Of a stretch of DNA of 64,000 bases, positions 3,000-16,137 are shown in pieces. The notes below the pieces were generated by a model, which saw only the letters and a list, made by a program, of their open reading frames with translations, did no database searches and was not told where the DNA came from. The position numbers were made by a program, and so were the translations under genes. The DNA is from a virus. Taxonomy: Duplodnaviria; Caudoviricetes. Position 1 is the first letter of the stretch; each line of letters begins with the position of its first letter. The DNA lies in the IMG/VR virus record IMGVR_UViG_3300032285_003957, positions 64,001 through 128,000 of that record. One strand, written 5' to 3'.

Positions 3000-3000
3000 T

Positions 3001-3174: not shown

Positions 3175-3190
3175 ATGATTAGGATTTTAC

Positions 3191-3217
3191 CTAATGCATG
3201 TCGAATTCTTTTTTCAT
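3191..3217 (-). CDS. 8-aa uORF MKKEFDMH (copy 2), stop codon inside hairpin ATTAGG-TAAAAT-CCTAAT
   Basis: ATG AAA AAA GAA TTC GAC ATG CAT TAG, starting 2 nt after the upstream stop. Confidence 0.6.
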   Translation of the reverse strand: MKKEFDMH

Positions 3218-3219
3218 GG

Positions 3220-3462
3220 TTACTTATATTTTCTTATTGTTTTAAAAACTTTTGTTATATCGGTCAATTCCATTACTTGGTCGTTTCTAATTGGATAAAA
3301 TGCAATTGTAAAACCGTGGTTTCCAAGATAGAAATCTTCCTTCATTATTCTATTGCCATTTACCTTTTCAAGATATATCCAAGGATAGTTACCAACCAAT
3401 TCAACGTTGATTCCTATCTTCTTTAATCTTGGGACTAACCTGTTTATTACGTTGTCTTCCAT
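3220..3462 (-). CDS. Hypothetical protein (80 aa, MEDNVINRL...)
   Basis: ORF track, trimmed to the ATG at 3462 because the longer start overlaps tRNA-Trp. Confidence 0.65.
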   Translation of the reverse strand: MEDNVINRLVPRLKKIGINVELVGNYPWIYLEKVNGNRIMKEDFYLGNHGFTIAFYPIRNDQVMELTDITKVFKTIRKYK

Positions 3463-3476
3463 AACTTTATTTTTAG

Positions 3477-3547
3477 CACGGGTGGAGAGATTCGAACTCC
3501 CATCGATGGTTTTGGAGACCATAATTCTGCCGTTGAACTACACCCGC
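3477..3547 (-). tRNA. trnW: tRNA-Trp(CCA)
   Basis: GCGGGTG/CACCCGT, ATGGT-CT CCA AA-ACCAT, G73. Confidence 0.94.
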
Positions 3548-3554
3548 GTATTTG

Positions 3555-3629
3555 TGACCCCTTTGGGACTCGAACCCAAAACCCACTGGTTAAAAGCCAG
3601 TTACTCTAATCCGATTGAGCTAAGAGGTC
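3555..3629 (-). tRNA. trnK: tRNA-Lys(TTT)
   Basis: GACCTCT/AGGGGTC, ACTGG-CT TTT AA-CCAGT. Confidence 0.95.
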
Positions 3630-3638
3630 TTACTCTTG

Positions 3639-3764
3639 TCACTTTCCATAGTTGTTGTTTTTAATTTGTTCAAATAACTTATTATGTCTTATCTTTTTAT
3701 CTTCTTGCATCTTCTTTATCAATGCAATAAAATCTTTGCTTGCTTTTACTTTAATCGTTTTCAT
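3639..3764 (-). CDS. 41-aa Lys-rich small ORF (MKTIKVKASKDFIALIKK...)
   Basis: Manual translation; fills the Phe-Lys tRNA spacer. Confidence 0.4.
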   Translation of the reverse strand: MKTIKVKASKDFIALIKKMQEDKKIRHNKLFEQIKNNNYGK

Positions 3765-3778
3765 AAAATACCTTTTAG

Positions 3779-3851
3779 TGGAAATGGTTGGTTTCGACCC
3801 AACTCCTGAAGATTTTCAGTCTTCCGCTTCTACCAAGTTAGCTTCATTTCC
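3779..3851 (-). tRNA. trnF: tRNA-Phe(GAA)
   Basis: GGAAATG/CATTTCC, GAAGA-CT GAA AA-TCTTC; T-loop starts with G. Confidence 0.92.
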
Positions 3852-3856
3852 TATTG

Positions 3857-3929
3857 TTCTTAGAGATGGGTTCGAACCATCAACCTTCCGCGTATCAGGC
3901 GGATGCTCTCACCATTGAGCTACCTAAGA
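3857..3929 (-). tRNA. trnI: tRNA-Ile(GAT)
   Basis: TCTTAGG/TCTAAGA, TCCGC-CT GAT AC-GCGGA. Confidence 0.93.
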
Positions 3930-3934
3930 ATATG

Positions 3935-4007
3935 TGGAGTAAGTGGAACTCGAATCCACAACCTCAAGAATGCAAATCTTGTGCTCATCCGCTAGAGCTT
4001 TTACCCC
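3935..4007 (-). tRNA. trnA: tRNA-Ala(TGC)
   Basis: GGGGTAA/TTACTCC with the G3:U70 Ala determinant, CAAGA-TT TGC AT-TCTTG. Confidence 0.93.
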
Positions 4008-4226: not shown

Positions 4227-4290
4227 AAAAGTTCAAAATATTTTTTTTCTTAAAATAGAATATAGAGATTGCCTAATGATATTTATCAGT

Positions 4291-4788
4291 ATGACAAAAA
4301 TATTGAAGGTATCTCTCCTACCTTTATTCATGCTGTTTATGGGCCAAACCCACGCCCAAAAAGTATATCTTGATAAGGTAGAGAACAAAGTTGTAATGGG
4401 TAAAATGGCCGGTAACCGTAATCTTGGTTTCGGTTGTAAAAACATTTTCTTAGAAATTTTACAGGACAAAAATTATGATATTACCGAAACTGTGGCAGAC
4501 GCTGACATGGTATTTAAGGCTGATATTATGTATTTTGATGTAAACAGAACAAAAAGAAATGTGTCTGTATTCCATTCCGATGTGGAAGAGACTTTGGTTG
4601 TAATCAAGGGGTATCTCTATGACAAAAGTGGTAAAAAAATTAAAGAGGCTGTTGCAGAAGAGTCAAGTTCAGAAATATCCACATCAACACTTATAACAGA
4701 TGAAGGAAGTAGCTCCATAAATCAACAAGCTTTATCGCAAGCCATTAAAAAAACTTGCGTTACATTAATAAATAAAATTTTTAAATAA
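4291..4788 (+). CDS. Secreted protein, CsgG/LptE-like alpha-beta fold (tentative)
   Basis: Signal peptide ending THA-Q; start preferred at 4291, after the TATTTAT motif. Confidence 0.55.
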   Translation: MTKILKVSLLPLFMLFMGQTHAQKVYLDKVENKVVMGKMAGNRNLGFGCKNIFLEILQDKNYDITETVADADMVFKADIMYFDVNRTKRNVSVFHSDVEETLVVIKGYLYDKSGKKIKEAVAEESSSEISTSTLITDEGSSSINQQALSQAIKKTCVTLINKIFK

Positions 4789-4790
4789 AC

Positions 4791-6446
4791 ATGAAAAAAA
4801 TAATAAATTTAATTGTATTAACAACATTAATACCATTCATTTCATTTGGCCAATTAACTGTAAACCAAACAGTAACCCCAACAACAGGGTTAAAAGTTGG
4901 TGATACCGTTTCGGTAAAGTATACTGTGGCAAGAGGAACTACGACACCTCGTTATTTTTGGTTAAGATACCAATATAATAACAAAGCTTTAGCTTATGTT
5001 TCAACAACATTCTCACAAGGAACTTCAGTTCAAACATATTACACAAACTGGTCTTCTTATAAATTCACAGCAAATGCAAATAAAGATGCTACCGATTTGT
5101 ATGAGCAATATAAATTAACACCATGGGCGTATACAACCAATGCTGATTGGAATGTTGGTCAGTTAACAGTTCAAAGAACTGACGCAGCAATTAATGGAGA
5201 CATTGCAACTCAAAAATATGTAATCAAAGATTTAGGTGATTATACAAACATCCATAAAATAGATTTATCCTATTCAATTGATGGAACAGGTGCTAATATT
5301 AGCCCAATCACAACTAATCCTGGTACAATGTCTTTATCAAACGTTGTTGGTAACACATCTCAATTTAAAGTAAGAGTTTTATTCCCAACAGGATACGATA
5401 TCACTTCTCATAGTGTGTCTTTATTACCATTAAAAACAACAGGTGAGGTTGATTGGACCGCAAGAGCCATTGCAACTAAACCATTGGATGCAAGTGGTGA
5501 AGCCATTTTTACAACGGAGGCTAAAGTAGGTGACACGTTTGCTGTATTTGTAAATGCGGCATTACAGAAAACATTTATGAATAACATCATAACAGTATCA
5601 GACGCTTATAAAGCATTCTTAGGTGTTTCCCAAACAGATATCAATGGTAACGCAACTTACTTTACATATCCTTCATTAGAGAAGAAAATTGGTTTAATTA
5701 CAAACGGAAAAACAGCATTTAGCGAAAGCGACTCATACAATTTATTTGCAAATGTTATGGGTATTGATGTTAGTTCTGTTGCAATGATTCCATCAAATGC
5801 TGCACCCGTAAATGGTGTGGTTAACTTCAAATGGTATAATGGTTTATTAAATCAAAGTTGGTTAGACGGCGTTCCAACATATAAAACAAAAGTAACATCA
5901 TCAAATCAAGCGGTTGATATGGTATTTGCATGGGGCGGTGATTTAGACTGGTCTCATTCATCTTCACCAACAGAAATTGCATCAAGAATTTCAAGTGGTA
6001 ATTACGCTAACTCGGTTAACCCATCAAACGGAACCATCAAAACCATGTCTTTAACAACTATGTCATATACACCAACAATAGAAAAAGCAACATTAGGTTT
6101 AGCTTCAACAATTGTTAATGGTAAAGTTGTATTAACAGGAACTTTAACTAAAGATGGTTTAGCAGGTTTAGAAGTTATTTTACAATATGATAACACAAAA
6201 TTAACATTTGATAATATTGCGTTTGATGCGGGTGCAAGTGTAACTAACTTTTCAACAAACACAGATGGTAGATTAACATTTGGTTCTATGGATCAAACAA
6301 AAACTGCAAGAATTAAAATAGGAACACCATATAAATTAACATTTACACCAAAAGAAACATTAACAAATACAGCGGGATTATTCTACACAGTTTTAGCTGA
6401 CGCTGTTGATGGAAATGGAAATAAAATCAACTTAACGGTTGAATAA
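4791..6446 (+). CDS. Secreted beta-rich protein with C-terminal cohesin-like domain
   Basis: Signal peptide (SFG-Q); GLEVILQYDNTKLTF cohesin-like pattern. Confidence 0.6.
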   Translation: MKKIINLIVLTTLIPFISFGQLTVNQTVTPTTGLKVGDTVSVKYTVARGTTTPRYFWLRYQYNNKALAYVSTTFSQGTSVQTYYTNWSSYKFTANANKDATDLYEQYKLTPWAYTTNADWNVGQLTVQRTDAAINGDIATQKYVIKDLGDYTNIHKIDLSYSIDGTGANISPITTNPGTMSLSNVVGNTSQFKVRVLFPTGYDITSHSVSLLPLKTTGEVDWTARAIATKPLDASGEAIFTTEAKVGDTFAVFVNAALQKTFMNNIITVSDAYKAFLGVSQTDINGNATYFTYPSLEKKIGLITNGKTAFSESDSYNLFANVMGIDVSSVAMIPSNAAPVNGVVNFKWYNGLLNQSWLDGVPTYKTKVTSSNQAVDMVFAWGGDLDWSHSSSPTEIASRISSGNYANSVNPSNGTIKTMSLTTMSYTPTIEKATLGLASTIVNGKVVLTGTLTKDGLAGLEVILQYDNTKLTFDNIAFDAGASVTNFSTNTDGRLTFGSMDQTKTARIKIGTPYKLTFTPKETLTNTAGLFYTVLADAVDGNGNKINLTVE

Positions 6447-8365
6447 TGAAAAAACTACTAACCTTTTTATTCTTATTAATTTGTTCAATAACCTACTCCC
6501 AATCAGGAGTGGGTTATTTGAATTATACGGTTTATAACATCATAAGTAATGGTGCGGGTCAATATGCTAATAATGCAACTAACTTTGTTAATATGTTTGA
6601 TGTTACAAAAGGTGCTAGTGTTTATGCAAGTGGTGTGACAACCGCCGCTAAGGCTTTATATTTTGTTAATAGTTGGACACCTTCAGGAGTTCCAAATGGT
6701 GGTGCATATACCGGTATTAAAATTACAGGATATTTTGTTCCAAAAGAAAGTGGAACATATTCATTTGGTATTGATGGTGATGATGGTGTGGATTTCTCAT
6801 TAGATGGTGTTGTTGTAACGTCATTTTATGGACCACATGGATTTGGTGGTTATCGTTTTGGAACAATTAATTTAGTTGCGGGTAAAACATACACATTTAT
6901 GGCTAGATATCAAAACTGGGGAGGTGGATGGGGTTTGGATTTAGCATGGAAAAGACCTTCACAGTCACAATGGACAGTTCAATCAAATGAAGTTTATTCA
7001 ACAAAACCCGCAGAACCATCTAAAAAAGGGTTGGTAAATTTTAATTTAAATACGAATTTAAATGCAACAACATTTTCAATAGGTTCATCGACATTAAGTT
7101 CAGCAGGTTCCGCCGATATAACAAATGATTTAGATAGTAATAAAATCGCTGCAGGTTATAAAGCCGCAATTACACCAGGTCAAGTTGAGTGGTCGTATAC
7201 AAATCCAAATGCAAATTGGTTAGGTGGTAATAGTAGATTATTAATTGATATGAGACAAGTTGGTAATATAGATCCAACTAAAATTAATAGTGCAAAAATA
7301 TTTGATGCGTATGATGGTGATATAACATACACATCACATGACCCAAATGGGTGGGCGATATATACGGTTCCATCACCATTAACAAAAATAACAGATGGAA
7401 CTTCAACATATAATTCATCAATTAGAAATGTAAATGGGTGGAATACCGACTATGCATTTCAAAGCACTATTACATTTTCACAAACTCAAGTGTATAAAAC
7501 ACAAACAATACCTGTAACAACAACTAATAATATATCAACATTGTATAATAGTATTGTAACGGTATCAGATGTTTATTTGGCATTCAAAGAAGTGTCAAAT
7601 GTGGGCTTATTTGGTAATCAAAGTGGTAATGAGTTTTCATATGGAATTCAATATAAAAATGCAGATGTAAATGACGACGGAGTATTCAATGAAGTGGATT
7701 GTTTCTTATTGTTACAAAATTTGACGGGTGCAAAACAATTAGTTGATACTTTTAATTTAAACAAAACATTAAGAATAATACCACAATCAACATATGACAC
7801 TATTGGTAAATCAAATTGGAATAATTTTATAACACCATTAGGTGGTTCATATTCATTTAACATAAACACCGGTAAACCAACTGACACATTTAAATTAGCA
7901 ATAGCTTGGAAGGGTGATGTGAACCTATCTCACTCAACGACACCTACGTCAAATACTTACACCACAATGTCATTAAAATCAATGAGTGTAAGTAATGAAA
8001 TAAACGCATCAATATTAACTGAAATAATAGGTGATAGTGTTTATACATACATTACATTGGACCCATTGCAACAAAATGTTGTAGGAACACAATTTCAATT
8101 GAATTATGATAATACATCATTAAAATTCAATAATGTAAAATTTACAACAAAAGGAGCGCCTACTAATTATTCAACGGATAAAGGTTCATATATTAATTTG
8201 GGTTCATTGGTTAGTGATGGTAGCACAAATTTAGATAACACCACAACATATAAAATATCTTTTACAGCAACGACTAAATTGGATAATGTATTTGGTTTGA
8301 TTTCGGTCGGTGCAACTGATGCTATTAATAAAAGTGGGACAACATTAAAAGTAAGAATGAATTAA
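6446..8365 (+). CDS. Secreted PA14-domain protein with dockerin-like and cohesin-like segments
   Basis: Signal peptide; PA14 pattern ITGYFVPKESGTYSFGIDGDDG; ADVNDDGVFNEVDCFLL; VGTQFQLNYDNTSLKF. Confidence 0.65.
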   Translation: MKKLLTFLFLLICSITYSQSGVGYLNYTVYNIISNGAGQYANNATNFVNMFDVTKGASVYASGVTTAAKALYFVNSWTPSGVPNGGAYTGIKITGYFVPKESGTYSFGIDGDDGVDFSLDGVVVTSFYGPHGFGGYRFGTINLVAGKTYTFMARYQNWGGGWGLDLAWKRPSQSQWTVQSNEVYSTKPAEPSKKGLVNFNLNTNLNATTFSIGSSTLSSAGSADITNDLDSNKIAAGYKAAITPGQVEWSYTNPNANWLGGNSRLLIDMRQVGNIDPTKINSAKIFDAYDGDITYTSHDPNGWAIYTVPSPLTKITDGTSTYNSSIRNVNGWNTDYAFQSTITFSQTQVYKTQTIPVTTTNNISTLYNSIVTVSDVYLAFKEVSNVGLFGNQSGNEFSYGIQYKNADVNDDGVFNEVDCFLLLQNLTGAKQLVDTFNLNKTLRIIPQSTYDTIGKSNWNNFITPLGGSYSFNINTGKPTDTFKLAIAWKGDVNLSHSTTPTSNTYTTMSLKSMSVSNEINASILTEIIGDSVYTYITLDPLQQNVVGTQFQLNYDNTSLKFNNVKFTTKGAPTNYSTDKGSYINLGSLVSDGSTNLDNTTTYKISFTATTKLDNVFGLISVGATDAINKSGTTLKVRMN

Positions 8366-8718
8366 TGAAAATTATAAAAATAATATTAATATTTTGTTTT
8401 ATTTCTGTGGTATCATGTAGAAAACCTGATTTACCGACACCTGTTGTTGCAAACAATAAGGAGTTCTTTTCGGTTTCTGAAAACGCGGTTAAAAACGGTG
8501 ATATTATAAATTTTAGTATATCAACAGGAGGTGTTTATACATTAACGATGATAGATACTGTTCAAAATCAAGTTGTATCAAGAGAAAGGTTTACAGGTAA
8601 AGCAGGTTTGAATTCACTTAAAATATTTACAAATTCCTTACCGACAAAATACCTAAGTGTCGTGTTAAAGGACCAAAATAATAATCAAATAGGTAAAACA
8701 AAAATAATTATAAATTAA
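8365..8718 (+). CDS. Lipoprotein with T9SS C-terminal-sorting-domain-like fold
   Basis: Lipobox VVSC; Ig-like strand pattern. Confidence 0.5.
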   Translation: MKIIKIILIFCFISVVSCRKPDLPTPVVANNKEFFSVSENAVKNGDIINFSISTGGVYTLTMIDTVQNQVVSRERFTGKAGLNSLKIFTNSLPTKYLSVVLKDQNNNQIGKTKIIIN

Positions 8719-8730
8719 AAAAAGACAAAA

Positions 8731-9099
8731 ATGAAAAAAATCTCTCTCCTAATTTTCGGATTAATTGCTCTTGCGGGTTGCACAAAACAAGATATTGTTC
8801 CACAACCACAAGCAATTAGTGATAACTTAAAAATCAGCAGTTCAGTTGGTTTAAAGTTGGAAACACCTTTTGTAACAAGTGAGGTGGCTATGAACATAAA
8901 AAGTGATGTAGCTCAAACCGTTACGGTTAAAATATTTGATATCTCTAATAGAGTTGTGTCAAAATCAACAAGTGACGTAAAAGTGGGTGATAATATCTTA
9001 AGAGTATACACCTCAGCTTTACCGTCTTCAGCTTATAGAATAGCTCTATATGACGCAAATGGTAATATGTTAACCATAACTGATTTTAATAAAATCTAA
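8731..9099 (+). CDS. Lipoprotein with T9SS C-terminal-sorting-domain-like fold
   Basis: Lipobox LAGC; VTVKIFDISNRVV...LPSSAYRIAL resembles the type A CTD. Confidence 0.6.
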   Translation: MKKISLLIFGLIALAGCTKQDIVPQPQAISDNLKISSSVGLKLETPFVTSEVAMNIKSDVAQTVTVKIFDISNRVVSKSTSDVKVGDNILRVYTSALPSSAYRIALYDANGNMLTITDFNKI

Positions 9100-9133
9100 G
9101 ATAATTATATATAAACACTAAACACAAAAAAAG

Positions 9134-9505
9134 ATGGCAAAAACAAAAAAAGAACAAACGCCTGACGAAGCGATGGCAAAAAATGAAAAACACAATGACG
9201 GTTCAATGAGCGGTTTAAAGAAAACCATTATTGGAACAGTTGGAACGTTAGTTACAGCGGGTGGAGCATTTTTAATGACTTACCTACAAAAACCAAAGGA
9301 GAGTGATGCTAAAGCTCAACCACAAACACAACAATCAATAAACATTAATATCCCTCAACAACAAGCTGCAGGTAAAACTGTAATTGTTCAAGGTGGTGGA
9401 AATGGTGCCGCATCATCAGCAAAACCTGCGGAAGCAGCAAAACCAGTACCTGCACCTAAGAAAAAAGAAGGTGATGAGTTTAAAGAAAAACCTGCTCAGT
9501 GGTAA
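9134..9505 (+). CDS. Single-pass membrane protein with Pro/Ala/Gln-rich tail
   Basis: One hydrophobic segment IIGTVGTLVTAGGAFLMTYL. Confidence 0.65.
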   Translation: MAKTKKEQTPDEAMAKNEKHNDGSMSGLKKTIIGTVGTLVTAGGAFLMTYLQKPKESDAKAQPQTQQSININIPQQQAAGKTVIVQGGGNGAASSAKPAEAAKPVPAPKKKEGDEFKEKPAQW

Positions 9506-9592
9506 TCTATTACCAAATAGGAACCTTAGCAGTTATAATAGGGGGATTATATCTCCTAATAAAAATGAGTTTTAAAATAGATAGAAAAAAAG

Positions 9593-10177
9593 ATGAGTGA
9601 CGAACAAAAAACCCCACAACCAAATACCGGTTTTAGGGATTTATTAAATTCAGTAATGAAAAGAAGATGGTATATTACTGCCATGGTATTGGGTGGTTTT
9701 ATGGTGATTATAGCAGGTGTATTTGCTGCTATTATGGCTAAAACACCCGCATCTGCAGAATGGAAAGAACTTCTATTATTGATGTTGGGCGCATTCATTG
9801 GTAGTTACGGTAAAATTATTGATTACTGGTTCAGCGACCAAGATAAGGATAAAATGTTGGTCCAAAAAATGGATGAAGAAGACGGAACAAGTTTATCTCA
9901 TACAAATGATATGAAGGAAACTAACACGCCGCCTACTCCACTTATCCCTGATGCGTTTGTCGCGGGTGCAGCTGCAGCAAGAGATTTAGCTGTTGTTGAA
10001 AACAAACAAAACTTTGAATTGGAGGTCGCTCAACAAAAACATGAGCATGAAATGGAAAAATTAGAATTTGAACATCATGCACACAGACAATGTGAGCACG
10101 AATGGGGTGATTCTGACCATGACGGACACGAGGAGTGTCAAAAATGTGGACTATTACGTGAAGACGTAGAAGGATAA
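9593..10177 (+). CDS. Two-TM membrane protein with His/Cys-rich C-terminus
   Basis: Two hydrophobic helices; CEHEW...CQKC putative Zn site. Confidence 0.65.
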   Translation: MSDEQKTPQPNTGFRDLLNSVMKRRWYITAMVLGGFMVIIAGVFAAIMAKTPASAEWKELLLLMLGAFIGSYGKIIDYWFSDQDKDKMLVQKMDEEDGTSLSHTNDMKETNTPPTPLIPDAFVAGAAAARDLAVVENKQNFELEVAQQKHEHEMEKLEFEHHAHRQCEHEWGDSDHDGHEECQKCGLLREDVEG

Positions 10178-10200
10178 ATAAACGACAAAAATAACAGACT

Positions 10201-10455
10201 ATGACATTTAAAGAATGGCTTATAGACCTTTTCAAAGATGAAAGAGGCACTATCTCGGTAAAACCGGTAATCGCATTTGTAGGCGCATTATTCCTATGTG
10301 GAACAATGTTAGCAAACTCATTTTCAAATAAAGATTTTGCACCTGCACCTGAATTAGTTAATGCGGTTATGGTTATAACTGCAATTGGTATGGGCGCAGA
10401 TACTTTGGATAAATTTACAAAGAAAGAAGCACCAAAAGAAGATTCTGAAGGTTAA
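10201..10455 (+). CDS. Small two-TM protein (holin-like topology)
   Basis: 84 aa, two TM segments, charged C-terminus. Confidence 0.55.
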   Translation: MTFKEWLIDLFKDERGTISVKPVIAFVGALFLCGTMLANSFSNKDFAPAPELVNAVMVITAIGMGADTLDKFTKKEAPKEDSEG

Positions 10456-10456
10456 T

Positions 10457-10486
10457 AAAAAGGGAGTTAAGACTCCCTTTTTTTTT
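10457..10486 (+). terminator. Intrinsic terminator
   Basis: AAAAAGGGAGT-TAAG-ACTCCCTTTTT plus T-run. Confidence 0.75.
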
Positions 10487-10512
10487 GGATATATTTATAT
10501 AAAAAACAGTTT

Positions 10513-10737
10513 ATGACTTTATCATTTAAAAACATCGGAGAAACACTGTTCAAAGGTTATTTAATACTTGTTGGTGTTTGGTTAGTATTTGCATTATCAT
10601 TTGATATTTTTGGGATTATACTTCATTTCACTAATCCTGATTTAGAACTAAAAATTTCAAACGAAATAGCATGGAAAATAGACGGAACTTATAAAAATAA
10701 TCCGGATAATATATGGTATGAAGGACCAAAGAAATAA
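10513..10737 (+). CDS. Small membrane protein
   Basis: ORF track; hydrophobic core. Confidence 0.6.
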   Translation: MTLSFKNIGETLFKGYLILVGVWLVFALSFDIFGIILHFTNPDLELKISNEIAWKIDGTYKNNPDNIWYEGPKK

Positions 10738-10742
10738 TTAAA

Positions 10743-11471
10743 ATGAAAAAATTATTATTAACAACAATATTAATGACATGTTCACTTTTTTATTACAAGT
10801 GTCATGCACAAACAATTGGTAGAACTAAAACAGAAGAATTTAAAGCGGATTTTGAAAAGAAAAAAGACATTTCGGCTTATTTGAACTATGATGGACCTCA
10901 AGTTCCAATTCAAATCCTTAAGTGTGGTATCAACGACGAGACCTATGAAATGTATCCTGAATTAAAGGAAAAACGTGTAGGCTTAGGTGTTGCAAACATC
11001 ACTTTGGAATATTTGGATAACCTTGGTCGTTTTATGTTTACTGAAGATAAAACGGAAATTAAGAACCGTATGGTAAAACAATTCCAAGCGTCTCAAGCAG
11101 GTATATCTGAAGATAAATTAGATGGTCGTGGAAAGATTCGTTTAGCTCATTATTTTGTTGAAATTGAGGTATATGATTACTCAGTATCTGAAGACGAAAC
11201 TATCAATCTAAAAGACGGTATTAAAGACAATATGGTAACTCGTATAGGTTTACAAGTAAGATTTACCGATGCTCAAACAGGAACCATCATTGGTGCTTCA
11301 GGTTTAGGTGAAGCTAAAACTAACAGAGAATTAACATTGTTATCTGATGCAACTGTAGACCCAATTAAATTTAATCAATCCACAATTAGTATTGCAACTA
11401 AAAAAGCTTTAGATATTGCATGTGCAAATATTCTTGATAAAATGATTAAAAAAGGTGTGTTTACCAAATAA
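10743..11471 (+). CDS. CsgG/HfaB-family outer-membrane channel-like protein
   Basis: Signal peptide; LGVANITLEYL...RFMFTE...QVRFTDAQTGTIIGAS pattern typical of CsgG-like proteins. Confidence 0.65.
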   Translation: MKKLLLTTILMTCSLFYYKCHAQTIGRTKTEEFKADFEKKKDISAYLNYDGPQVPIQILKCGINDETYEMYPELKEKRVGLGVANITLEYLDNLGRFMFTEDKTEIKNRMVKQFQASQAGISEDKLDGRGKIRLAHYFVEIEVYDYSVSEDETINLKDGIKDNMVTRIGLQVRFTDAQTGTIIGASGLGEAKTNRELTLLSDATVDPIKFNQSTISIATKKALDIACANILDKMIKKGVFTK

Positions 11472-11490
11472 AATATTTTAAGATAATGAT

Positions 11491-11516
11491 AAGGGGGACT
11501 AAATCCCCCTTTTTTT
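11491..11516 (+). terminator. Intrinsic terminator
   Basis: AAGGGGGA-CTAAA-TCCCCCTT plus T-run. Confidence 0.75.
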
Positions 11517-11529
11517 ATATTTATATGTT

Positions 11530-12459
11530 ATGGGAAAGTCAATTGTTATAACAGAATCACAACTTAAGCAAATCATAAGTAATGTGGTAAAACCTGAACC
11601 ATTAAACGAGTGCACAGTAGCAGGTGTTAGACTTAATGATGGGGTTGTTTTAGCCAAAAACAGAGATAGAGGTTATAATGCTGAAATGGAAATTGTTCAT
11701 GAAGTTTTAAATAACGTTGAAATAGCTTATTGGCATGATGTTGATACTGATTGGTCTGAAGGTATGAATGAATTTGGTATTGGTATTGTTAATTCTTCAT
11801 TAATGGTTAATGATGATGAAAAGGAAAGTGATAAAATTAAAGCCGCTAAAGAAGAAAAAGAAGAAAATAAAGATAAAAAAAAGAATCCAAGACACGCAAG
11901 TGACGGTGCTAAAATTAGACAAGCATTATTACAAAAAAATATAAGAGATTGTATTAAAGTTTTGATATCAACAAAAGGTGACGGTAGTGCAAAAGTAAAG
12001 GGTGTTACAGGACAATCAATTGTTAGTGATGGTAATGAAATTTACGTTATTGAACATTCAAGTATTGATGTTCCTGTTATTAAAAAATTAAAATCAGATA
12101 AAAAAATTGTGGTTAGAACTAATCACGGAATATTCCATAAAGATTTAGGTTACCAAAGTGGGCCCAAAAAAGAATCTTCACATAGTAGAATGGAATTAGC
12201 TAAAGAAAATTTGAAGAAGGCTAAAACAGATCAAGATGTGTTAGATTTATTAAAGAAAAAATATAAGAAAAATCCTTTTTTAAATCCATATAGAACTGAT
12301 AACAAATTTCATATGCAAACAGTTGGTCAAATTATGATGAACTGCGATAAAAAAACTATAACAATTCGTTTAGATAAAAAACATGGTGAATTTACCGGTA
12401 TGGAAACATTGTTACCAAAAGGTTATGAACCAAAAATAAAAATTAAAATAGAAAAATAA
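11530..12459 (+). CDS. Ntn-hydrolase (peptidase C45/C69-like) with 27-aa propeptide
   Basis: CTVAGV...VLAKNRD...EGMNEFGIGI...VRTNHG Ntn motifs, Cys28. Confidence 0.7.
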   Translation: MGKSIVITESQLKQIISNVVKPEPLNECTVAGVRLNDGVVLAKNRDRGYNAEMEIVHEVLNNVEIAYWHDVDTDWSEGMNEFGIGIVNSSLMVNDDEKESDKIKAAKEEKEENKDKKKNPRHASDGAKIRQALLQKNIRDCIKVLISTKGDGSAKVKGVTGQSIVSDGNEIYVIEHSSIDVPVIKKLKSDKKIVVRTNHGIFHKDLGYQSGPKKESSHSRMELAKENLKKAKTDQDVLDLLKKKYKKNPFLNPYRTDNKFHMQTVGQIMMNCDKKTITIRLDKKHGEFTGMETLLPKGYEPKIKIKIEK

Positions 12460-13268
12460 TGAAAAACATTTTATTCTTATTGTTACTTATCCCAACATTA
12501 ATGTTTGGGCAAGTATCTCATTGGAGAAGTAGTGCACCACAACAAGGAAGTGTGACTCCAAGAATGCAACAATCATTTCCACAACAAAATAACGTTAGTA
12601 GATGGAGAACACAAACAGAACCAATTAGACCGGGTCAACCTATCCCACAACAACCATTAGTAAGAACATATAGACCAACTATGATGAATCCATATGGTTT
12701 ATATTACGGAACATGGGGTTGGTATCAACCATACCCATATCTTTGGTATGATAACTATGGTTGGAGACATAGAAGTGTTGTTAGAATATATGAAAATGGT
12801 AAAAGAGATACTGTAGAAAAGGTTCAATACTTTAGCGCAGGTATTGGTCACACAAATAATAAACAAGCTTCTTTTTGGGGCGCCATAGGTGGTAATAAAG
12901 GATACTTTATTTTAGATTATACAATGTCGTATGATATTGACCGCAATGAATATTTTCCATATGGTAAAATTAATATGGTAGATTTCCCACTTAGTAAAAC
13001 TGATTTTATCAAGCAAGGCACATTATATCTTGGTGGCGGTAAACGATTTGGTAAATTAGGTGTTCATGGAATGATTGGATTTGGACACGAAGAGATTAGA
13101 TATCAAGGTAAAGATAACCTCGGTGGTATTTCATTTCCAAAATCAAACGCAAATTTTACAACATTTAAGTTTGGTGTTATAAGAGATTTCAAATTCTTTA
13201 CATTAAAATTAGATAGAGACCCAATTAGAAATTACAATCAAATATCTATTGGATTGCATAACTTATAA
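12459..13268 (+). CDS. Secreted protein with Pro/Gln-rich N-region and probable outer-membrane beta-barrel
   Basis: Signal peptide; alternating amphipathic strands to the C-terminus. Confidence 0.55.
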   Translation: MKNILFLLLLIPTLMFGQVSHWRSSAPQQGSVTPRMQQSFPQQNNVSRWRTQTEPIRPGQPIPQQPLVRTYRPTMMNPYGLYYGTWGWYQPYPYLWYDNYGWRHRSVVRIYENGKRDTVEKVQYFSAGIGHTNNKQASFWGAIGGNKGYFILDYTMSYDIDRNEYFPYGKINMVDFPLSKTDFIKQGTLYLGGGKRFGKLGVHGMIGFGHEEIRYQGKDNLGGISFPKSNANFTTFKFGVIRDFKFFTLKLDRDPIRNYNQISIGLHNL

Positions 13269-14899
13269 TGAAAAAAATATTAATACCTCTCCTATTACTA
13301 TTTTTTTGTGTTAAATCTTTCGGTCAAAGCACTATAACACAAACTTACATTGACCCATGTGACAATAAAGTTTATGTGGTTACAATTCCATTTGGTCAAA
13401 ACCAAACTATTGCAATTATTAGAGGACAATCAAGAATAGTTACGTTAGCTGACATGAATAGTGGAGCGTTTCAATTATGGGTTAATAAGATATTTTCAAC
13501 ACCATGTTCAACACAAAATGACGCAATAGCAGCCGCACAAGCGGCAGCAGCAAAAGCGGCGGCAGACGCAGCAGCTAAAGCAGCAGCAGATGCGGCAGCA
13601 AAGGCCGCGGCAGACGCAGCAGCAAAAGCAGCAGCGGCAGCTGCATCAAACGCTGCAGGTAATGCGGCTTCATCAGCAGCAAGTGGCGCAGCGAGTTCTG
13701 CGGCCAGTTCAGCAGCAAGCGGAGCGGCTTCTAATGCAGCAAGTTCAGCAGCATCATCATCTGCAAGTTCTGCGGCTAGTGGTAGCGCGAGTTCTGCGGC
13801 AGCAAGTTCAGCTGCGGCACCTCCACCTCCACCTGCGAGTGCACCACCGCCACCACCACCTGCGAGCGGAGGATCATCATCTCCACCACCGGCAAGTGGC
13901 AGCTCATCATCAGGAGGTGAAAGTAGCTCATCTTCAAGTAGCGGCTCATCATCAAGTAGTAGTTCATCTTCTTCTTCAAGTGGTGAAAGTAAATCAAGTG
14001 GAGGTTCTACTGAACAAAAATCAGAATCAAAAACCGAAAGTAAATCTGAATCAAAAACGGAAGAAAAGAAAACCGAATCAAAATCAGAAGAAAAAAAGGA
14101 AGAGTCTAAATCCGAAGAAAAGAAAAGCGACGATAAAAAAGAAGAAAAGAAAACAGAAGAAAAAAAGGAAGATAAAAAGGAAGAAGAAAAGAAAAAAGAA
14201 GAGAAGAAGAAAGAAGACGATAAAAAGAAAAAAGCGGAAGTTACTAATCCATTACTTTTGGCTTCAGATTTAACAACAGCACAACAGGCGGATGGTAGTT
14301 ATTTGGCGTCAATATCATTGGGTGTAAGTAAATCATCATTAATGGGTGATGAAAGTTATAGCGGAGGTTTAGTTGTTAATAGTAATTTAAGTTCAGTTGT
14401 TACAACAGCGGGTTATACTAAAATGGCTATGACAAAAGATGGACAATTAAGTGGTATCCATTCATATGGAACGGCATTTGCATATTTGGCAGGAAACTAT
14501 ATGAATTTGTTGGGATATACTTTCATAAAACCCACACCAAAAAGAGGAACGTATGGTTATAATTTAGGTGTGATTAATTTATTCCTTAAAAATGATAACG
14601 GAGGATTTGATTATAATGTAGCTTCATCGGCAATTGTCTTTTGGACCAAACCTTATGTATATTCAAAAAAACTTACGATATCACCACAAGTGTTTAGCAT
14701 GTTTTCACCCATTGCTTGGAATAGTGTTACTAACGTAACAACCGTAAATAGACATATGGGCTTTTTGTTAGGTTCTTCATTTGATTACAAACTAAGCAAA
14801 AGATTTGGGTTTAGTTTTAATTACAAATTAAGTGGTAACACAAAACCTGGTACACAATTCTTAAGTAACTTCTTGATTGGTTCAAGAATGATGCTTTAA
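13268..14899 (+). CDS. Secreted protein with Ala/Pro/Ser/Glu-Lys low-complexity stalk and probable C-terminal beta-barrel
   Basis: Signal peptide; AAADAAAK repeats, poly-Pro, poly-Ser, EK run, then aromatic-rich strands. Confidence 0.65.
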   Translation: MKKILIPLLLLFFCVKSFGQSTITQTYIDPCDNKVYVVTIPFGQNQTIAIIRGQSRIVTLADMNSGAFQLWVNKIFSTPCSTQNDAIAAAQAAAAKAAADAAAKAAADAAAKAAADAAAKAAAAAASNAAGNAASSAASGAASSAASSAASGAASNAASSAASSSASSAASGSASSAAASSAAAPPPPPASAPPPPPPASGGSSSPPPASGSSSSGGESSSSSSSGSSSSSSSSSSSSGESKSSGGSTEQKSESKTESKSESKTEEKKTESKSEEKKEESKSEEKKSDDKKEEKKTEEKKEDKKEEEKKKEEKKKEDDKKKKAEVTNPLLLASDLTTAQQADGSYLASISLGVSKSSLMGDESYSGGLVVNSNLSSVVTTAGYTKMAMTKDGQLSGIHSYGTAFAYLAGNYMNLLGYTFIKPTPKRGTYGYNLGVINLFLKNDNGGFDYNVASSAIVFWTKPYVYSKKLTISPQVFSMFSPIAWNSVTNVTTVNRHMGFLLGSSFDYKLSKRFGFSFNYKLSGNTKPGTQFLSNFLIGSRMML

Positions 14900-15651: not shown

Positions 15652-16137
15652 TTATTCACTATTTTTACTGCGGTCCCAACGTGCCTCTCTAACTTCAGGA
15701 GATAGTTGAAATTGTTCATCTATAGTGTGCTCAATTTTAACGTATTGAGCTATTTGATGTGTCCTACAATTTTTAAAATAATTATTAACATACCCTAATA
15801 TATTGTGTGTGCCGACGGGATTTGCTGAATGAACATAAATTTGTGGTAACGGTATTCCCCTATTCATACTTTCAGCTACAAGAAACTTTGCAGCATCTAA
15901 TCCTGTTTTCTCAGTAATGTTAGAATAATCAATCGTATAATTATTTTTTACATTTGTATAGTATTCAATCATAGCACTATCGCCTAAATCGTGGTCTAAA
16001 GATATAACTTCAAATCTTTCTAAACCATAACGTTTTACTTCCGTCACAAAATCATCGTAGTTCCTTACAACAATCCAATCTTCAGATATAGGCGTTCTCA
16101 CGTCATCAAGATATAATCTTTTTTTCTCAGTTTTCAT
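15652..16137 (-). CDS. Cyclic-phosphate-processing receiver-domain protein
   Basis: LYLDDVRTP, SLDHDLG, TGLDAAKFL, HSANPVG motifs; adjacent to the RNA ligase. Confidence 0.75.
   Translation of the reverse strand: MKTEKKRLYLDDVRTPISEDWIVVRNYDDFVTEVKRYGLERFEVISLDHDLGDSAMIEYYTNVKNNYTIDYSNITEKTGLDAAKFLVAESMNRGIPLPQIYVHSANPVGTHNILGYVNNYFKNCRTHQIAQYVKIEHTIDEQFQLSPEVREARWDRSKNSE

What the first reader, a model, noticed from the sequence alone, without database searches (positions are those of the whole stretch)
4291..14899. About 10-kb phage-encoded cell-envelope/secretion module built around CsgG-like proteins
Seen: about a dozen co-oriented, often overlapping genes nearly all carrying signal peptides, lipoboxes or TM helices. 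These are two CsgG-like proteins, large PA14/cohesin-like secreted proteins, two lipoproteins, inner-membrane proteins and two probable beta-barrels. Established: CsgG forms a secretion pore and PA14 binds carbohydrate. Inference: a trans-envelope apparatus assembled in the infected cell (surface adhesin display, aggregation, superinfection block or lysis aid), not typical virion genes.
Basis: partly seen in the sequence, partly recalled or inferred. Interest (0 to 1): 0.7.

Follow-up and report, generated by a model that had tools for sequence, protein, structure and literature searches.

The report
Phage cassette of exported host-envelope proteins
A very large phage of Flavobacterium-type bacteria carries a conserved 13-gene block whose products nearly all go to the host's membranes, periplasm or surface, most likely to re-dress the infected cell's surface late in infection; the function is untested, and a cultured phage-host pair could test it.

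Summary
Window 4291-14899 carries 13 co-oriented + strand genes in three transcription units:
- six have cleavable signal peptides with Gln at +1
- two are lipoproteins
- four are small membrane proteins
- one (g11) is a cytoplasmic Ntn-hydrolase-like insert.

What each part is:
- **g10** is a real but very distant CsgG/HfaB-superfamily protein (profile E 1.7e-4 to E. coli CsgG; fold Z 12-13). No homolog examined has a lipobox Cys, so it is not a canonical CsgG lipoprotein.
- **g1** is a shorter remote paralog. In 29 of 47 relatives it is fused to a g9-like membrane anchor, which argues against an outer-membrane pore.
- **g3** has PA14. g2 and g3 both end in a cohesin domain.
- **g13** has a small disulfide domain, a long disordered stalk and a confidently modelled 12-strand-type outer-membrane barrel (FapF/autotransporter-like).
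- **g12** as a barrel is unverified.

The block is syntenic in all 34 related jumbo-phage contigs with full flanks. A reduced form is in cultured Flavobacterium phage immuto.

Best reading (about 0.5): a late, phage-built envelope and surface-display module. A true CsgG-type secretion pore is not shown.

This scan found the same block before in at least eight other genomes. The nearest publication is the csgG/csgF cluster of pelagimyophages.

The parts
4280..4286 (+). TATTTAT start-proximal motif before g1. It sets the g1 start at 4291, not 4276.
   Evidence: The motif lies 4 nt before ATG 4291. The same motif sits 4-24 nt before the ATGs of TerL, portal and other long ORFs (16 of 36 occurrences).
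4291..4788 (+). g1: exported 165-aa protein, a short remote paralog of g10 (CsgG/LpoB-type fold lacking the helical insert).
   Evidence: Signal peptide ...THA|Q. Family profile against the g10 family: hhalign 93.8%, E 1.7e-7. No Pfam hit. Atlas leads: DUF4410 and YajG-like. 29 of 47 homolog ORFs carry a g9-like TM anchor at the N-terminus.
4791..6446 (+). g2: exported 551-aa protein with a degenerate dockerin-like middle and a C-terminal cohesin domain.
   Evidence: Signal peptide ...SFG|Q. Its C-terminal ~290 aa are 28% identical to g3 (4e-17). Cohesin family evidence.
6446..8365 (+). g3: exported 639-aa lectin-type protein: PA14 head, a DxNxDG Ca-loop (dockerin-like) and a C-terminal cohesin domain.
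   Evidence: PA14 5.1e-13; Dockerin_1 only 0.015. Cohesin 1.3e-4 for the window copy, 22.6 bits against a cut-off of 24.1. In relatives the head is swapped for C-type lectin + LCCL.
8365..8718 (+). g4: 117-aa lipoprotein with one Ig-like beta-sandwich domain.
   Evidence: Lipobox VVSC. Paralog of g5 (28% identity, 9e-10). The Cys is conserved in all 42 family representatives.
8731..9099 (+). g5: 122-aa lipoprotein with a T9SS-CTD-like / DUF3244-like beta-sandwich domain.
   Evidence: Lipobox LAGC. Por_Secre_tail 0.0075 (Pfam) and 0.00096 (TIGR04183), both below cut-off. Family tally: DUF3244 15, Por_Secre_tail 5, FlgD_ig 4.
9134..9505 (+). g6: single-pass membrane protein (N-in) with a low-complexity periplasmic tail ending ...EGDEFKE..P.W.
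   Evidence: Sequence. 51% identical to immuto gp016, which directly precedes the g10 homolog there. The tail motif is conserved.
9593..10177 (+). g7: membrane protein with His/Cys-rich C-terminal region.
   Evidence: Hydrophobic segment 30-48. Only a weak match to phrog_1544, unknown function.
10201..10455 (+). g8: 84-aa two-helix membrane protein with a charged C-terminus (holin-like look only).
   Evidence: Weak match to phrog_1322 'membrane protein', E 0.0054.
10457..10482 (+). Terminator-like hairpin plus T-run ending unit 1 (g1-g8).
   Evidence: 11-bp stem with 4 GC pairs, then a T-run.
10513..10737 (+). g9: 74-aa signal-anchor membrane protein with the motif KIDGTYKNNPxNIWY. The TATTTAT motif lies at 10492-10498.
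   Evidence: The same module is fused to the N-terminus of g1 homologs in 24 distinct sequences.
10743..11471 (+). g10: exported, non-lipidated 242-aa CsgG/HfaB-superfamily protein, the most conserved gene of the block.
   Evidence: 17 of the 35 sequences in the g10 alignment hit Pfam CsgG. The family profile hits E. coli CsgG at 1.7e-4. AF2 pLDDT 85. Foldseek's top hits are CsgG. VIA Z 12-13 over 181-191 residues. All non-viral atlas rows are CsgG families. No lipobox in homologs. Median identity to related loci 84%.
11491..11511 (+). Terminator-like hairpin ending unit 2 (g9-g10).
   Evidence: 8-bp stem with 5 GC pairs, then a T-run.
11530..12459 (+). g11: cytoplasmic C45-type Ntn-hydrolase-like protein, a variable insert rather than a core part. 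TATTTAT lies at 11518-11524.
   Evidence: NCBIfam C45_proenzyme 2.4e-12, below cut-off. Pfam AAT 1e-4. Present in only 7 of 80 loci.
12459..13268 (+). g12: exported 269-aa protein with a Q/P- and W/G-rich N-half and a beta-rich C-half. Possibly a small outer-membrane barrel (unverified).
   Evidence: Signal peptide ...MFG|Q. Most homologs end ...GLGxNF. Atlas lead to OMP_b-brl families at 0.88 only. No Pfam, PDB or hhalign support.
13268..14899 (+). g13: 'stalked barrel': signal peptide, a ~55-aa two-Cys N-domain, ~250 aa of low complexity (Ala/Ser/Pro, then Lys/Glu), and a C-terminal 12-strand-type outer-membrane beta-barrel.
   Evidence: AF2 of residues 320-543: pLDDT 88.7, all-beta. Foldseek: FapF, COG4313, NanC/KdgM, autotransporter beta-domains. 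Atlas: autotransporter beta-domain TM 0.80. The N-domain motif is conserved in immuto gp018 and distant relatives.

Best explanation
A phage-encoded host-envelope and surface-remodelling module, probably expressed with the late genes in the infected Flavobacteriia-type cell.

Proposed assembly:
- The Sec pathway exports g1, g2, g3, g10, g12 and g13, and the lipoprotein pathway exports g4 and g5.
- g6-g9 sit in the inner membrane.
- g13 inserts as a 12-strand-type outer-membrane barrel carrying a long flexible stalk and a small disulfide-bonded N-domain.
- g10 is a non-lipidated CsgG-fold protein. g1 is the same fold, and in many relatives it is tethered to the inner membrane by a g9-type anchor. 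Both act in the periplasm or at the inner face of the outer membrane as assembly or conduit partners of the barrel.
- The cargo is the pair of cohesin-tailed proteins g2 and g3. The sugar-binding head of g3 (PA14 here, C-type lectin/LCCL elsewhere) is swapped between phages. Each cohesin protein is matched by one small Ig-fold lipoprotein (g4, g5).

Net effect (inferred): sugar-binding, self-docking proteins are placed on or under the outer membrane of the virocell. They could mask surface glycan receptors (superinfection block, less loss of progeny on debris) or stick cells and particles together.

Shown: the export signals, the domain and fold identities, conservation and synteny, and host phylum by relatives.

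Inferred: the timing, the pairings, surface exposure in this clade, and the biological pay-off.
For: - **Export signals are conserved across homologs**: Gln at +1 after every SPase I site, and lipobox Cys in all 42 g4/g5 representatives.
- **The block is conserved.** Order g1-g10, g12, g13 is kept in all 34 full-flank loci. 204 viral stretches encode a g10 relative. g10 is the slowest-evolving gene (median 84% identity) and g3 among the fastest (48%).
- **A core survives in divergent phages.** The order cohesin protein, small TM protein(s), g10-like, g13-like recurs in cultured Flavobacterium phage immuto (gp015-gp018) and in contigs whose g10 homolog is only 35-45% identical.
- **Relatives route the cohesin protein through the outer membrane.** In the L085 relative the cohesin protein carries a bona fide T9SS sorting domain (Cohesin 1.5e-11, Por_Secre_tail 1.2e-10), and the L087/L088 cohesin proteins carry the same two families as precomputed Pfam hits.
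- **g10 fold**: best matches are CsgG, then PelC, LptE, PqiC and TraT, which are outer-membrane-associated, mostly ring- or plug-forming proteins.
- **g13**: a confident outer-membrane barrel.
- **Head swapping** between PA14 and C-type lectin + LCCL on a constant cohesin tail.
- **One lipoprotein per cohesin protein** in 46 of 46 loci: 43 have 2+2 and 3 have 1+1.
- **g9-type anchor** is fused to g1 in relatives and adjacent to g10 here.
- **The TATTTAT start-proximal motif** is shared by g1, g9 and g11 with TerL and portal.
Against: - No experiment exists and no expression data could be obtained.
- In this clade g2 and g3 lack a T9SS sorting domain, so their passage across the outer membrane is not shown. 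They could stay periplasmic.
- None of the physical pairings (g10-g13, cohesin-lipoprotein, cohesin with the g13 N-domain) could be tested.
- The dockerin assignment is weak (Pfam 0.015; the PDB profile search found no dockerin).
- g12's fold is unknown.
- Sharing a motif with packaging genes fits late timing, but would equally fit a lysis or virion role.
- In relatives the slot between g9 and g10 can hold an endolysin or a class 3 lipase.
Confidence: 0.5

Rival explanations
1. A genuine type VIII (curli-like) secretion system. g10 forms a CsgG-type oligomeric outer-membrane pore that secretes unfolded substrates: the Q/N/W/G-rich part of g12, the g13 stalk, or g2/g3. These build fibres or a matrix that aggregates cells, as in the 'sibling capture' proposal for pelagimyophage csgG/csgF.
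For: - g10 is closest in fold to CsgG: Z 12-13 with 181-191 residues aligned, more than for any other family.
- The family's near-invariant YPEL motif aligns with the YPASN constriction loop of E. coli CsgG (alignment).
- There is a long beta-hairpin at residues 137-176.
- Phage-borne csgG/csgF clusters are published (PMC7029224).
- The g13 barrel's best solved match is FapF, the other amyloid exporter.
Against: - No g10 homolog has a lipobox Cys. By my recollection of the CsgG literature, non-lipidated CsgG stays a soluble pre-pore.
- The hairpin tip (SVSEDETINLKDGIKDN) is polar on both faces.
- No CsgE, CsgF, CsgA or CsgB family hit appears in the block.
- The same domain family is fused to caspases and kinases, where a pore makes no sense.
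- The FapF match is no better than matches to generic 12-strand porins.
Confidence: 0.13
2. A lysis or egress module. g8/g9 (and g7) act as holins or antiholins. g6 with the g4/g5 lipoproteins acts like a spanin pair. The outer-membrane proteins weaken the Bacteroidota outer membrane at the end of infection.
For: - g8 and g9 are small membrane proteins, and g8 has a charged C-terminus.
- In relative L024 a PG_binding_1 + GH19 endolysin sits between g9 and g10. In several others a class 3 lipase does.
- This phage's own endolysin homolog (contig 33619-34464) is an orphan with no holin or spanin beside it.
- The motif shared with packaging genes suggests late timing.
Against: - Ten kilobases with two 550-640-aa lectin/cohesin proteins and a stalked barrel is far more than any known lysis cassette.
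- g4 and g5 carry a folded Ig-like domain, unlike o-spanins.
- No PHROG holin or spanin match was found.
- In this genome and in immuto the endolysin lies elsewhere.
Confidence: 0.14
3. A strictly periplasmic function. The lectin/cohesin proteins and CsgG/LpoB-fold proteins act on peptidoglycan or periplasmic glycans, for example to stabilise or re-model the wall during a long jumbo-phage infection, with nothing displayed on the surface.
For: - g2 and g3 of this clade have no T9SS sorting domain.
- g1 is tethered to the inner membrane in many relatives.
- LpoB, a member of the same superfamily, regulates a peptidoglycan synthase (my own knowledge). 8 of 35 g10 relatives hit Pfam LpoB.
Against: - Relatives put a T9SS tag on the cohesin protein (and precomputed hits).
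- The block contains an outer-membrane barrel with a long stalk.
- Swapping of lectin heads is the pattern expected for contact with variable surface glycans.
Confidence: 0.1
4. Ordinary virion components: fibres or decoration proteins with lectin and Ig-like domains.
For: - Lectin, Ig-like and variable-head architectures are common in receptor-binding and decoration proteins.
- The start-proximal motif is shared with TerL and portal.
Against: - Eight of the 13 proteins have conserved Sec signal peptides or lipoboxes and four are membrane proteins. By established knowledge, tailed-phage particles assemble in the cytoplasm.
- No PHROG structural family hits.
- The block lies 11 kb from the packaging/head genes and is separated from them by oppositely oriented genes.
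Confidence: 0.04

Closest known systems
Partial curli (type VIII secretion) cluster csgG/csgF of pelagimyophages (HTVC008M group), Zaragoza-Solas et al. 2020, PMC7029224 (read)
   Same: A large myophage carries a CsgG-family gene inside a small cluster of exported proteins. Its function is unknown, and adhesion or aggregation ('sibling capture') or superinfection avoidance have been proposed.
   Different: - Those genes are recognisable CsgG and CsgF close to alphaproteobacterial ones, whereas g10 misses the Pfam model and has no lipid anchor.
- No CsgF is present here.
- This block adds cohesin/lectin proteins, paired lipoproteins, a stalked barrel and four membrane proteins.
- The host phylum is Bacteroidota.
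E. coli CsgG curli channel (PDB 4uv3, 4uv2, 6l7a) and the CsgG/HfaB family (Pfam PF03783)
   Same: - g10 shares the fold (Z 12-13).
- Profile-level homology at 1.7e-4.
- The conserved YP loop aligns with the CsgG constriction loop.
- It has a long beta-hairpin where CsgG has TM1.
   Different: - g10 has no lipobox and its hairpin tip is polar.
- There are no CsgE/F/A/B partners.
- Oligomeric state is untested.
- Mature g10 is about 40 residues shorter.
Type Va autotransporters and FapF (PDB 5o65-5o68)
   Same: g13 has an N-terminal extra-barrel part, a linker and a C-terminal 12-strand-type barrel. FapF and autotransporter beta-domains are among the best structural matches.
   Different: - No sequence-family hit.
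- The 'passenger' is only a ~55-aa domain on ~250 aa of low complexity.
- Which side of the membrane it faces is unknown.
- Generic porins (NanC, KdgM, COG4313) match equally well.
Cellulosome-type cohesin-dockerin assemblies, and T9SS cargo of Bacteroidota
   Same: - Cohesin domains are at the C-termini of g2 and g3.
- g3 has one DxNxDG calcium-loop segment.
- The relative L085 carries Cohesin + Por_Secre_tail on one protein.
   Different: - No enzyme subunits and no verified dockerin.
- In this clade the sorting-domain-like fold sits on separate lipoproteins (g4, g5) and scores below the family cut-offs.
Surface-exclusion lipoproteins (F-plasmid TraT, phage T5 Llp)
   Same: They are mobile-element-encoded outer-membrane proteins that change what the cell surface accepts. 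Decameric TraT appears among g10's fold matches (Z 7.4-7.8).
   Different: - The TraT match is weak and within the range of common arrangements.
- No sequence relation.
- Those systems are single genes.

Membership tests
CsgG/HfaB (Pfam PF03783; T8SS channel) | Sequence match to the family model at its curated cut-off | tested here: not met
   g10 and g1 give no Pfam hit at E <= 0.1. Membership is only transitive: 17 of the 35 sequences in the g10 alignment hit PF03783 (best 1.9e-17), and the family profile hits E. coli CsgG at 1.7e-4.
CsgG/HfaB (Pfam PF03783; T8SS channel) | CsgG alpha/beta fold | tested here: met
   For g10: AF2 pLDDT 85. Foldseek's top hits are CsgG at E about 5e-7. VIA Z 12-13, rmsd 3.1-3.6, 173-191 residues aligned. 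All non-viral atlas rows are CsgG families. For g1 the evidence is hhalign to the g10 family only (93.8%).
CsgG/HfaB (Pfam PF03783; T8SS channel) | N-terminal lipobox Cys (outer-membrane lipoprotein) | tested here: not met
   About 60 distinct g10 homologs have an SPase I site ...|QTIG and none has a lipobox Cys. g1 likewise reads ...THA|Q, or carries an inner-membrane anchor in relatives.
CsgG/HfaB (Pfam PF03783; T8SS channel) | Two amphipathic transmembrane beta-hairpins per subunit that form the barrel | tested here: inconclusive
   One long hairpin (137-155 / 159-176) and a third long strand (182-197) are modelled. The hairpin tip is polar on both faces. A second hairpin is not evident.
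CsgG/HfaB (Pfam PF03783; T8SS channel) | Nonameric ring | not testable with these tools
CsgG/HfaB (Pfam PF03783; T8SS channel) | Partner genes CsgE/CsgF and curlin subunits nearby | tested here: not met
   No such family among the Pfam and NCBIfam hits of the 13 proteins at E <= 0.1.
Autotransporter (type Va) / FapF-type exporter | C-terminal 12-strand outer-membrane beta-barrel | tested here: met
   g13 residues 320-543: pLDDT 88.7. FapF, NanC, KdgM and autotransporter beta-domains score TM 0.6-0.8. The strand count is read from the DSSP string and the matched folds, not from coordinates.
Autotransporter (type Va) / FapF-type exporter | Sequence match to the Autotransporter (PF03797) or FapF families; a pore-filling helix before the barrel | tested here: not met
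   g13 gives no Pfam family at E <= 0.1. The segment before the barrel was not modelled.
Cohesin (PF00963) | Match to the family model | tested here: inconclusive
   The window's g3 C-terminus scores 22.6 bits against a cut-off of 24.1. 28 of 32 family members match at E <= 0.01. Relatives L072 (33 bits) and L085 (45 bits) pass the cut-off. The family profile hits cohesin 4ums at 8.4e-5.
PA14 (PF07691) | Match to the family model | tested here: met
   g3 residues 65-179: 49.5 bits against a cut-off of 24, E 5.1e-13.
Dockerin type I (PF00404) | Duplicated calcium-binding loop-helix segment matching the model | tested here: inconclusive
   g3 residues 394-425 score 15.9 bits against a cut-off of 22.9. 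One canonical DxNxDG loop is conserved in the g3 lineage and degenerate in g2. The family profile finds no dockerin in the PDB.
T9SS type A C-terminal sorting domain (PF18962 / TIGR04183) | Match to the model, located at the C-terminus of a Sec-exported cargo | tested here: inconclusive
   g5 scores 17 bits (cut-off 27) and 19.1 bits (cut-off 23). Five of the 64 sequences scanned match, 44 of which are g4/g5 lipoproteins; the best E is 3.7e-4. More members match DUF3244. The domain sits on a lipoprotein with no cargo. The distant relative L085 carries a clear one on its cohesin protein.
Bacterial lipoproteins | Lipobox with invariant Cys at the end of the signal peptide | tested here: met
   g4 has VVSC and g5 has LAGC. 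The Cys is kept in all 42 distinct representatives and in the single lipoprotein of L070, L072 and L075.
Holin / spanin lysis cassette | Match to known holin or spanin families; adjacency to the endolysin | tested here: not met
   No PHROG holin or spanin hit. The endolysin homolog of this genome lies 34 kb away. Adjacency was seen only in one relative, L024.

The most novel reading that the evidence does not exclude
The block is a phage-built, cellulosome-like display device. g13 inserts in the host outer membrane and holds out, on a 250-residue flexible stalk, a small disulfide domain. That domain (or the paired lipoproteins g4/g5) captures the cohesin tails of g2 and g3. The virocell becomes coated with interchangeable lectins tuned to the host's own surface glycans. 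The coat either blinds the receptors used by this and rival phages, or glues sibling cells to the infected cell so that progeny find hosts at once. g10 and g1 would be a new, non-lipidated branch of the CsgG superfamily serving as its periplasmic assembly ring.
Probability: 0.22. Interest if true: 0.8.

Novelty: new variant of a known kind. Interest (0 to 1): 0.6.

Why it matters
Phages are known to alter host surfaces with single genes (exclusion lipoproteins, O-antigen modifiers). One paper reports csgG/csgF genes in SAR11 myophages without a known function.

Here a whole multi-compartment set of exported proteins is conserved across hundreds of uncultured freshwater and marine phage contigs of Bacteroidota (204 viral stretches encode a g10 relative). 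Its lectin heads are swapped like receptor-binding proteins.

If it coats the infected cell with lectins, it would be:
- a new way for lytic phages to control superinfection, progeny loss or host aggregation in dilute waters
- a new, lipid-anchor-free branch of the CsgG superfamily
- a natural outer-membrane display scaffold for Bacteroidota.

It is directly testable, because Flavobacterium phage vB_FspM_immuto and its host Flavobacterium sp. LMO8 are in culture and carry the core genes.

Tried and rejected
- **Megablast of the block against 50,697 phage records**: no match. Only a protein-level search found the immuto phages.
- **PHROGs on the block's proteins**: only weak, uninformative hits.
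- **g10 alone against the PDB**: nothing. A family profile was needed.
- **g1 profile against the PDB**: nothing.
- **g12**: no support from Pfam on 20 family members, from a PDB profile search or from hhalign against the g13 barrel. I do not call it a barrel.
- **Dockerin**: a PDB profile search of the conserved middle region found no dockerin.
- **g13 N-domain profile against the PDB**: nothing.
- **g13 barrel profile against the positional analogs in immuto and L085**: hhalign 6% and 0.5%. Orthology rests on the shared N-domain motif and architecture, not on the barrel.
- **Deep searches for g1 and the g13 barrel**: they returned only unnamed proteins of the same phage group, with no bacterial homolog of known function.
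- **Bacterial genome context of g10 relatives**: could not be obtained.
- **Tools not offered for this window**: complex prediction (ring formation, partner pairs) and the look-up of sequencing runs (expression).
- **Start at 4276 for g1**: rejected in favour of 4291, because the TATTTAT motif lies between the two.
- **One single operon**: rejected, because two internal terminator-like hairpins are each followed by the motif.

Full report
**Setting**

The window is bases 64001-128000 of a 234-kb IMG/VR viral contig, which CheckV rates about 70% complete. It also carries a large terminase, portal, major head protein and DNA polymerase, and 12 tRNA genes on the minus strand at 1056-4007. Related contigs reach 250-335 kb, so this is a jumbo phage.

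The finding sits between that tRNA array and a minus-strand set of RNA-repair-type genes: cREC_REC, a T4 Rnl1-type RNA ligase and an AAA_33 kinase.

**Anatomy**

Thirteen + strand ORFs fill 4291-14899. A TATTTAT motif lies 4-14 nt before the ATGs of g1 (4291), g9 (10513) and g11 (11530). Terminator-like hairpins with T-runs lie at 10457-10482 and 11491-11511. I therefore read three units: g1-g8, g9-g10 and g11-g13.

The motif is not over-represented in the window as a whole (36 found, 44 expected). But 16 of the 36 copies sit 4-24 nt before the ATG of a long ORF on the same strand, including TerL and portal. I take this as a hint, not proof, that the block belongs to the same late temporal class.

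**Export signals**

- **Signal peptides.** g1, g2, g3, g10, g12 and g13 begin with a Lys-rich, hydrophobic signal peptide whose predicted cleavage site is followed by Gln (THA|Q, SFG|Q, TYS|Q, CHA|Q, MFG|Q, SFG|Q).
- **Conservation of those sites.** In about 60 distinct g10 homologs the hydrophobic part varies freely, while the mature end QTIGxTKTE is fixed and no lipobox Cys occurs. All 21 g12 homologs read ...|QVSxWR.
- **Gln at +1.** By my own knowledge this is the 'Q-rule' described for Bacteroidota signal peptidase I substrates. I did not check that paper here.
- **Lipoproteins.** g4 and g5 have lipoboxes, and the Cys is kept in all 42 distinct family representatives.
- **Membrane proteins.** g6-g9 have one or two hydrophobic helices.
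- **The exception.** g11 has no signal. It is a C45-type Ntn-hydrolase-like protein (NCBIfam 2.4e-12, below cut-off) found in only 7 of 80 related loci. It is an insert, not a core part.

**The CsgG claim: g10**

Neither g10 nor g1 hits Pfam CsgG, and they are not detectably similar to each other by BLAST.

An exhaustive phmmer search with g10 found 209 cluster representatives. I aligned g10 with 34 diverse full-length hits (A1).
- 17 of the 35 sequences hit Pfam CsgG (best 1.9e-17) and 8 hit LpoB.
- The profile hits E. coli CsgG in the PDB at 1.7e-4.
- The AF2 model (pLDDT 85) has CsgG as its best solved match by Foldseek.
- By VIA-align it scores Z 12-13 with rmsd 3.1-3.6 and 173-191 residues aligned. 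Next come Cj1090c, PelC, LptE, PqiC, FlgT and TraT.
- All non-viral atlas matches are CsgG/HfaB clusters, in line with the language-model lead.
- The family's most conserved motif (Y71 P72. L74 ... G80. G82) aligns with the YPASN constriction loop of CsgG (alignment).

So g10 belongs to the CsgG superfamily. Three things keep me from calling it a CsgG channel:
- It has no lipid anchor.
- The tip of its one clearly elongated hairpin is polar on both faces.
- The same domain family occurs fused to caspase domains and to Ser/Thr kinases, where it must be a plain extracytoplasmic module.

Ring formation could not be tested.

**The CsgG claim: g1**

The g1 family profile matches the g10 family profile at 93.8% probability, E 1.7e-7. 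The alignment skips g10's helical insert. g1 is therefore a shortened paralog.

In 29 of 47 homolog ORFs (24 distinct sequences) g1 has no cleavable signal peptide. Instead it carries an N-terminal module that is homologous to g9: a signal-anchor helix plus the motif KIDGT(F/Y)KNNPxNIWY. In the window, g9 is a separate gene 5 nt upstream of g10.

This fusion/adjacency pattern links the g9-type anchor to the CsgG-fold proteins. It also places g1, at least in those relatives, on the inner membrane facing the periplasm. That is hard to reconcile with an outer-membrane pore.

**The large secreted proteins**

- g3 has a PA14 domain at 5.1e-13.
- g2 and g3 share their last ~290 residues (28% identity, 4e-17).
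- The final ~125 residues are a cohesin domain. 28 of 32 diverse family members hit Pfam Cohesin (best 1.1e-7). The window's g3 scores 22.6 bits, just under the 24.1 cut-off. The profile hits cellulosomal cohesin 4ums at 8.4e-5.
- Before the cohesin, the g3 lineage keeps one canonical DxNxDGxxxxxD calcium loop. It gives a weak Dockerin_1 hit (0.015) but no dockerin match in the PDB. I call this dockerin-like and unproven.
- In relatives the constant tail carries other heads: C-type lectin with or without LCCL. This is a cassette pattern typical of proteins that meet variable glycans.

**The lipoproteins**

g4 and g5 are paralogs with one Ig-like sandwich domain. That domain weakly resembles DUF3244, the T9SS type A sorting domain and FlgD_ig, all below cut-off.

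Their number follows the number of cohesin proteins. 43 loci have two of each. Three loci (L070, L072, L075) have one of each. This may reflect a single evolutionary event, so it is only a lead for pairing.

**The barrels**

g13 consists of four parts:
- a signal peptide
- a ~55-residue domain with invariant Q, T, D, C, G, W, C
- about 250 residues of Ala/Ser/Pro-rich and then Lys/Glu-rich low complexity
- a C-terminal 224-residue domain.

AF2 models the C-terminal domain with pLDDT 88.7 as an all-beta barrel. The best solved matches are FapF, the COG4313 channel, NanC/KdgM and autotransporter or invasin beta-domains. The best predicted matches are autotransporter beta-domain and Phenol_MetA_deg clusters at TM 0.80. 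It is thus a 12-strand-type outer-membrane barrel on a stalk. Which side the stalk faces is unknown.

g12 has a Q/P- and W/G-rich first half and a beta-rich second half that in most homologs ends ...GLGxNF. Only a 0.88 language-model lead points to OMP barrel families. Pfam, PDB and profile comparisons give nothing.

**Conservation and relatives**

- 204 viral stretches encode a g10 relative.
- In all 34 loci with full flanks, the genes g1-g10, g12 and g13 that are detected keep the same order. g10 is the best conserved (median 84% identity), while g3, g4 and g6 are the most divergent (43-48%).
- Deep searches returned 694 g1 relatives and 160 relatives of the g13 barrel. All are unnamed and from the same phage group.
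- The slot between g9 and g10 is variable. In different relatives it holds a PG_binding_1 + GH19 endolysin, a class 3 lipase, a GT2 glycosyltransferase, a metallophosphoesterase or two DUF2589 genes.
- This phage's own endolysin homolog lies 34 kb upstream, with no membrane-protein gene beside it.
- The cultured Flavobacterium phage vB_FspM_immuto (160 kb, host Flavobacterium sp. LMO8) has a reduced block:
  - gp013: C-type lectin
  - gp014
  - gp015: cohesin
  - gp016: 51% identical to g6
  - gp017: 55% identical to g10
  - gp018: same N-domain motif, stalk and beta-rich C-terminus ending in F as g13.
- Still more distant contigs (g10 homologs 35-45% identical) keep the order cohesin protein, small proteins, g10-like, g13-like.
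  - The L085 cohesin protein carries a clear T9SS sorting domain (Cohesin 1.5e-11, Por_Secre_tail 1.2e-10).
  - L087 and L088 show the same two families as precomputed hits, and add a DUF481 barrel and a stand-alone 146-aa Por_Secre_tail protein.

**Interpretation**

The shown facts are:
- a conserved phage block of Sec-exported, lipidated and membrane proteins
- a CsgG-superfamily protein always next to a stalked barrel
- cohesin-tailed lectins with swappable heads
- a T9SS tag on the cohesin protein in relatives
- a Bacteroidota host in the cultured relative.

From these I infer a module that assembles in the envelope of the infected cell and places lectin/cohesin proteins at or near its surface (confidence about 0.5). 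The purpose, whether receptor masking, a superinfection block, less progeny loss on debris, or cell-cell and particle adhesion, is inference only.

The rivals are:
- a true curli-like secretion pore (0.13)
- a lysis or egress role (0.14), kept alive by the endolysin and lipase inserts in relatives and by the orphan endolysin here
- a purely periplasmic role (0.10)
- virion components (0.04), made unlikely by the conserved export signals.

**Comparison with the known**

The only published phage precedent I could read is the csgG/csgF cluster of pelagimyophages. Its authors call its function a mystery and propose 'sibling capture' (PMC7029224). Literature searches for a Bacteroidota-phage equivalent found none.

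The present block differs in five ways: a far more divergent and non-lipidated CsgG-fold protein, no CsgF, cohesin/lectin cargo, paired lipoproteins and a stalked barrel.

Earlier follow-ups in this scan reached much the same description on at least eight other genomes, so the block is not new to the scan. It does appear to be undescribed in the literature I could search.

Noticed in passing
window 4280-4286, 10492-10498, 11518-11524, 26183-26189, 28019-28025, 53677-53683, 56622-56628 and others: TATTTAT (often TATTTATATA) lies 4-6 nt before the ATG of many long ORFs on both strands, including TerL and portal (16 of 36 copies lie 4-24 nt upstream). It looks like a phage promoter giving nearly leaderless mRNAs, or a start-site signal for a host without Shine-Dalgarno use.
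   Followed up: partly
L064:3650-4306, L026:1184-1840, L014:2048-2692, L024:452-1102, L079:1399-2055 (and 24 distinct sequences in all): In many relatives the g1 homolog is fused to an N-terminal g9-like signal-anchor module (motif KIDGT(F/Y)KNNPxNIWY). In the window, g9 is a separate gene just before g10. This is a Rosetta-stone link between the small membrane protein and the CsgG-fold proteins.
   Followed up: partly
L024:7990-8826; L018:9248-9991; L060:8444-9938; L016:8821-9940: The slot between g9 and g10 is a variable insertion site in relatives. It holds a PG_binding_1 + GH19 endolysin, a class 3 lipase, a GT2 glycosyltransferase plus a metallophosphoesterase, or two DUF2589 genes.
   Followed up: partly
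G000:C1:33619-34464 (locus L089 1501-2352), outside the window: This phage's endolysin homolog (PG-binding + GH19 type, 71% identical to the L024 one) stands alone, with no holin- or spanin-like gene beside it. The phage's holin and spanin equivalents are unassigned.
   Followed up: partly
window 11530-12459: g11 is a C45-type Ntn-hydrolase-like protein with no export signal, present in only 7 of 80 related loci. It has its own TATTTAT motif and follows a terminator.
   Followed up: partly
window 15652-17663 (minus strand): There is a cREC_REC (cyclic-phosphate processing receiver) domain gene, a T4 Rnl1-type RNA ligase and an AAA_33 kinase in a row. This is a tRNA-repair-like set lying close to the tRNA array.
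   Followed up: no
proteins P0087, P0116, P0128 (N-terminal g10-like domain + caspase) and P0122, P0133 (Ser/Thr kinase + C-terminal g10-like domain): The g10-type CsgG/LpoB-fold domain is fused to Peptidase_C14 caspase domains and to Ser/Thr protein kinases in bacteria. This suggests that this branch of the superfamily often serves as an extracytoplasmic binding or sensor module.
   Followed up: partly
window 18103-20193 (minus strand): A 696-aa protein gives a very strong match to phrog_4871 'ATP-dependent protease' (2.9e-246). It looks like a Clp/Lon-type AAA+ protein encoded by the phage.
   Followed up: no
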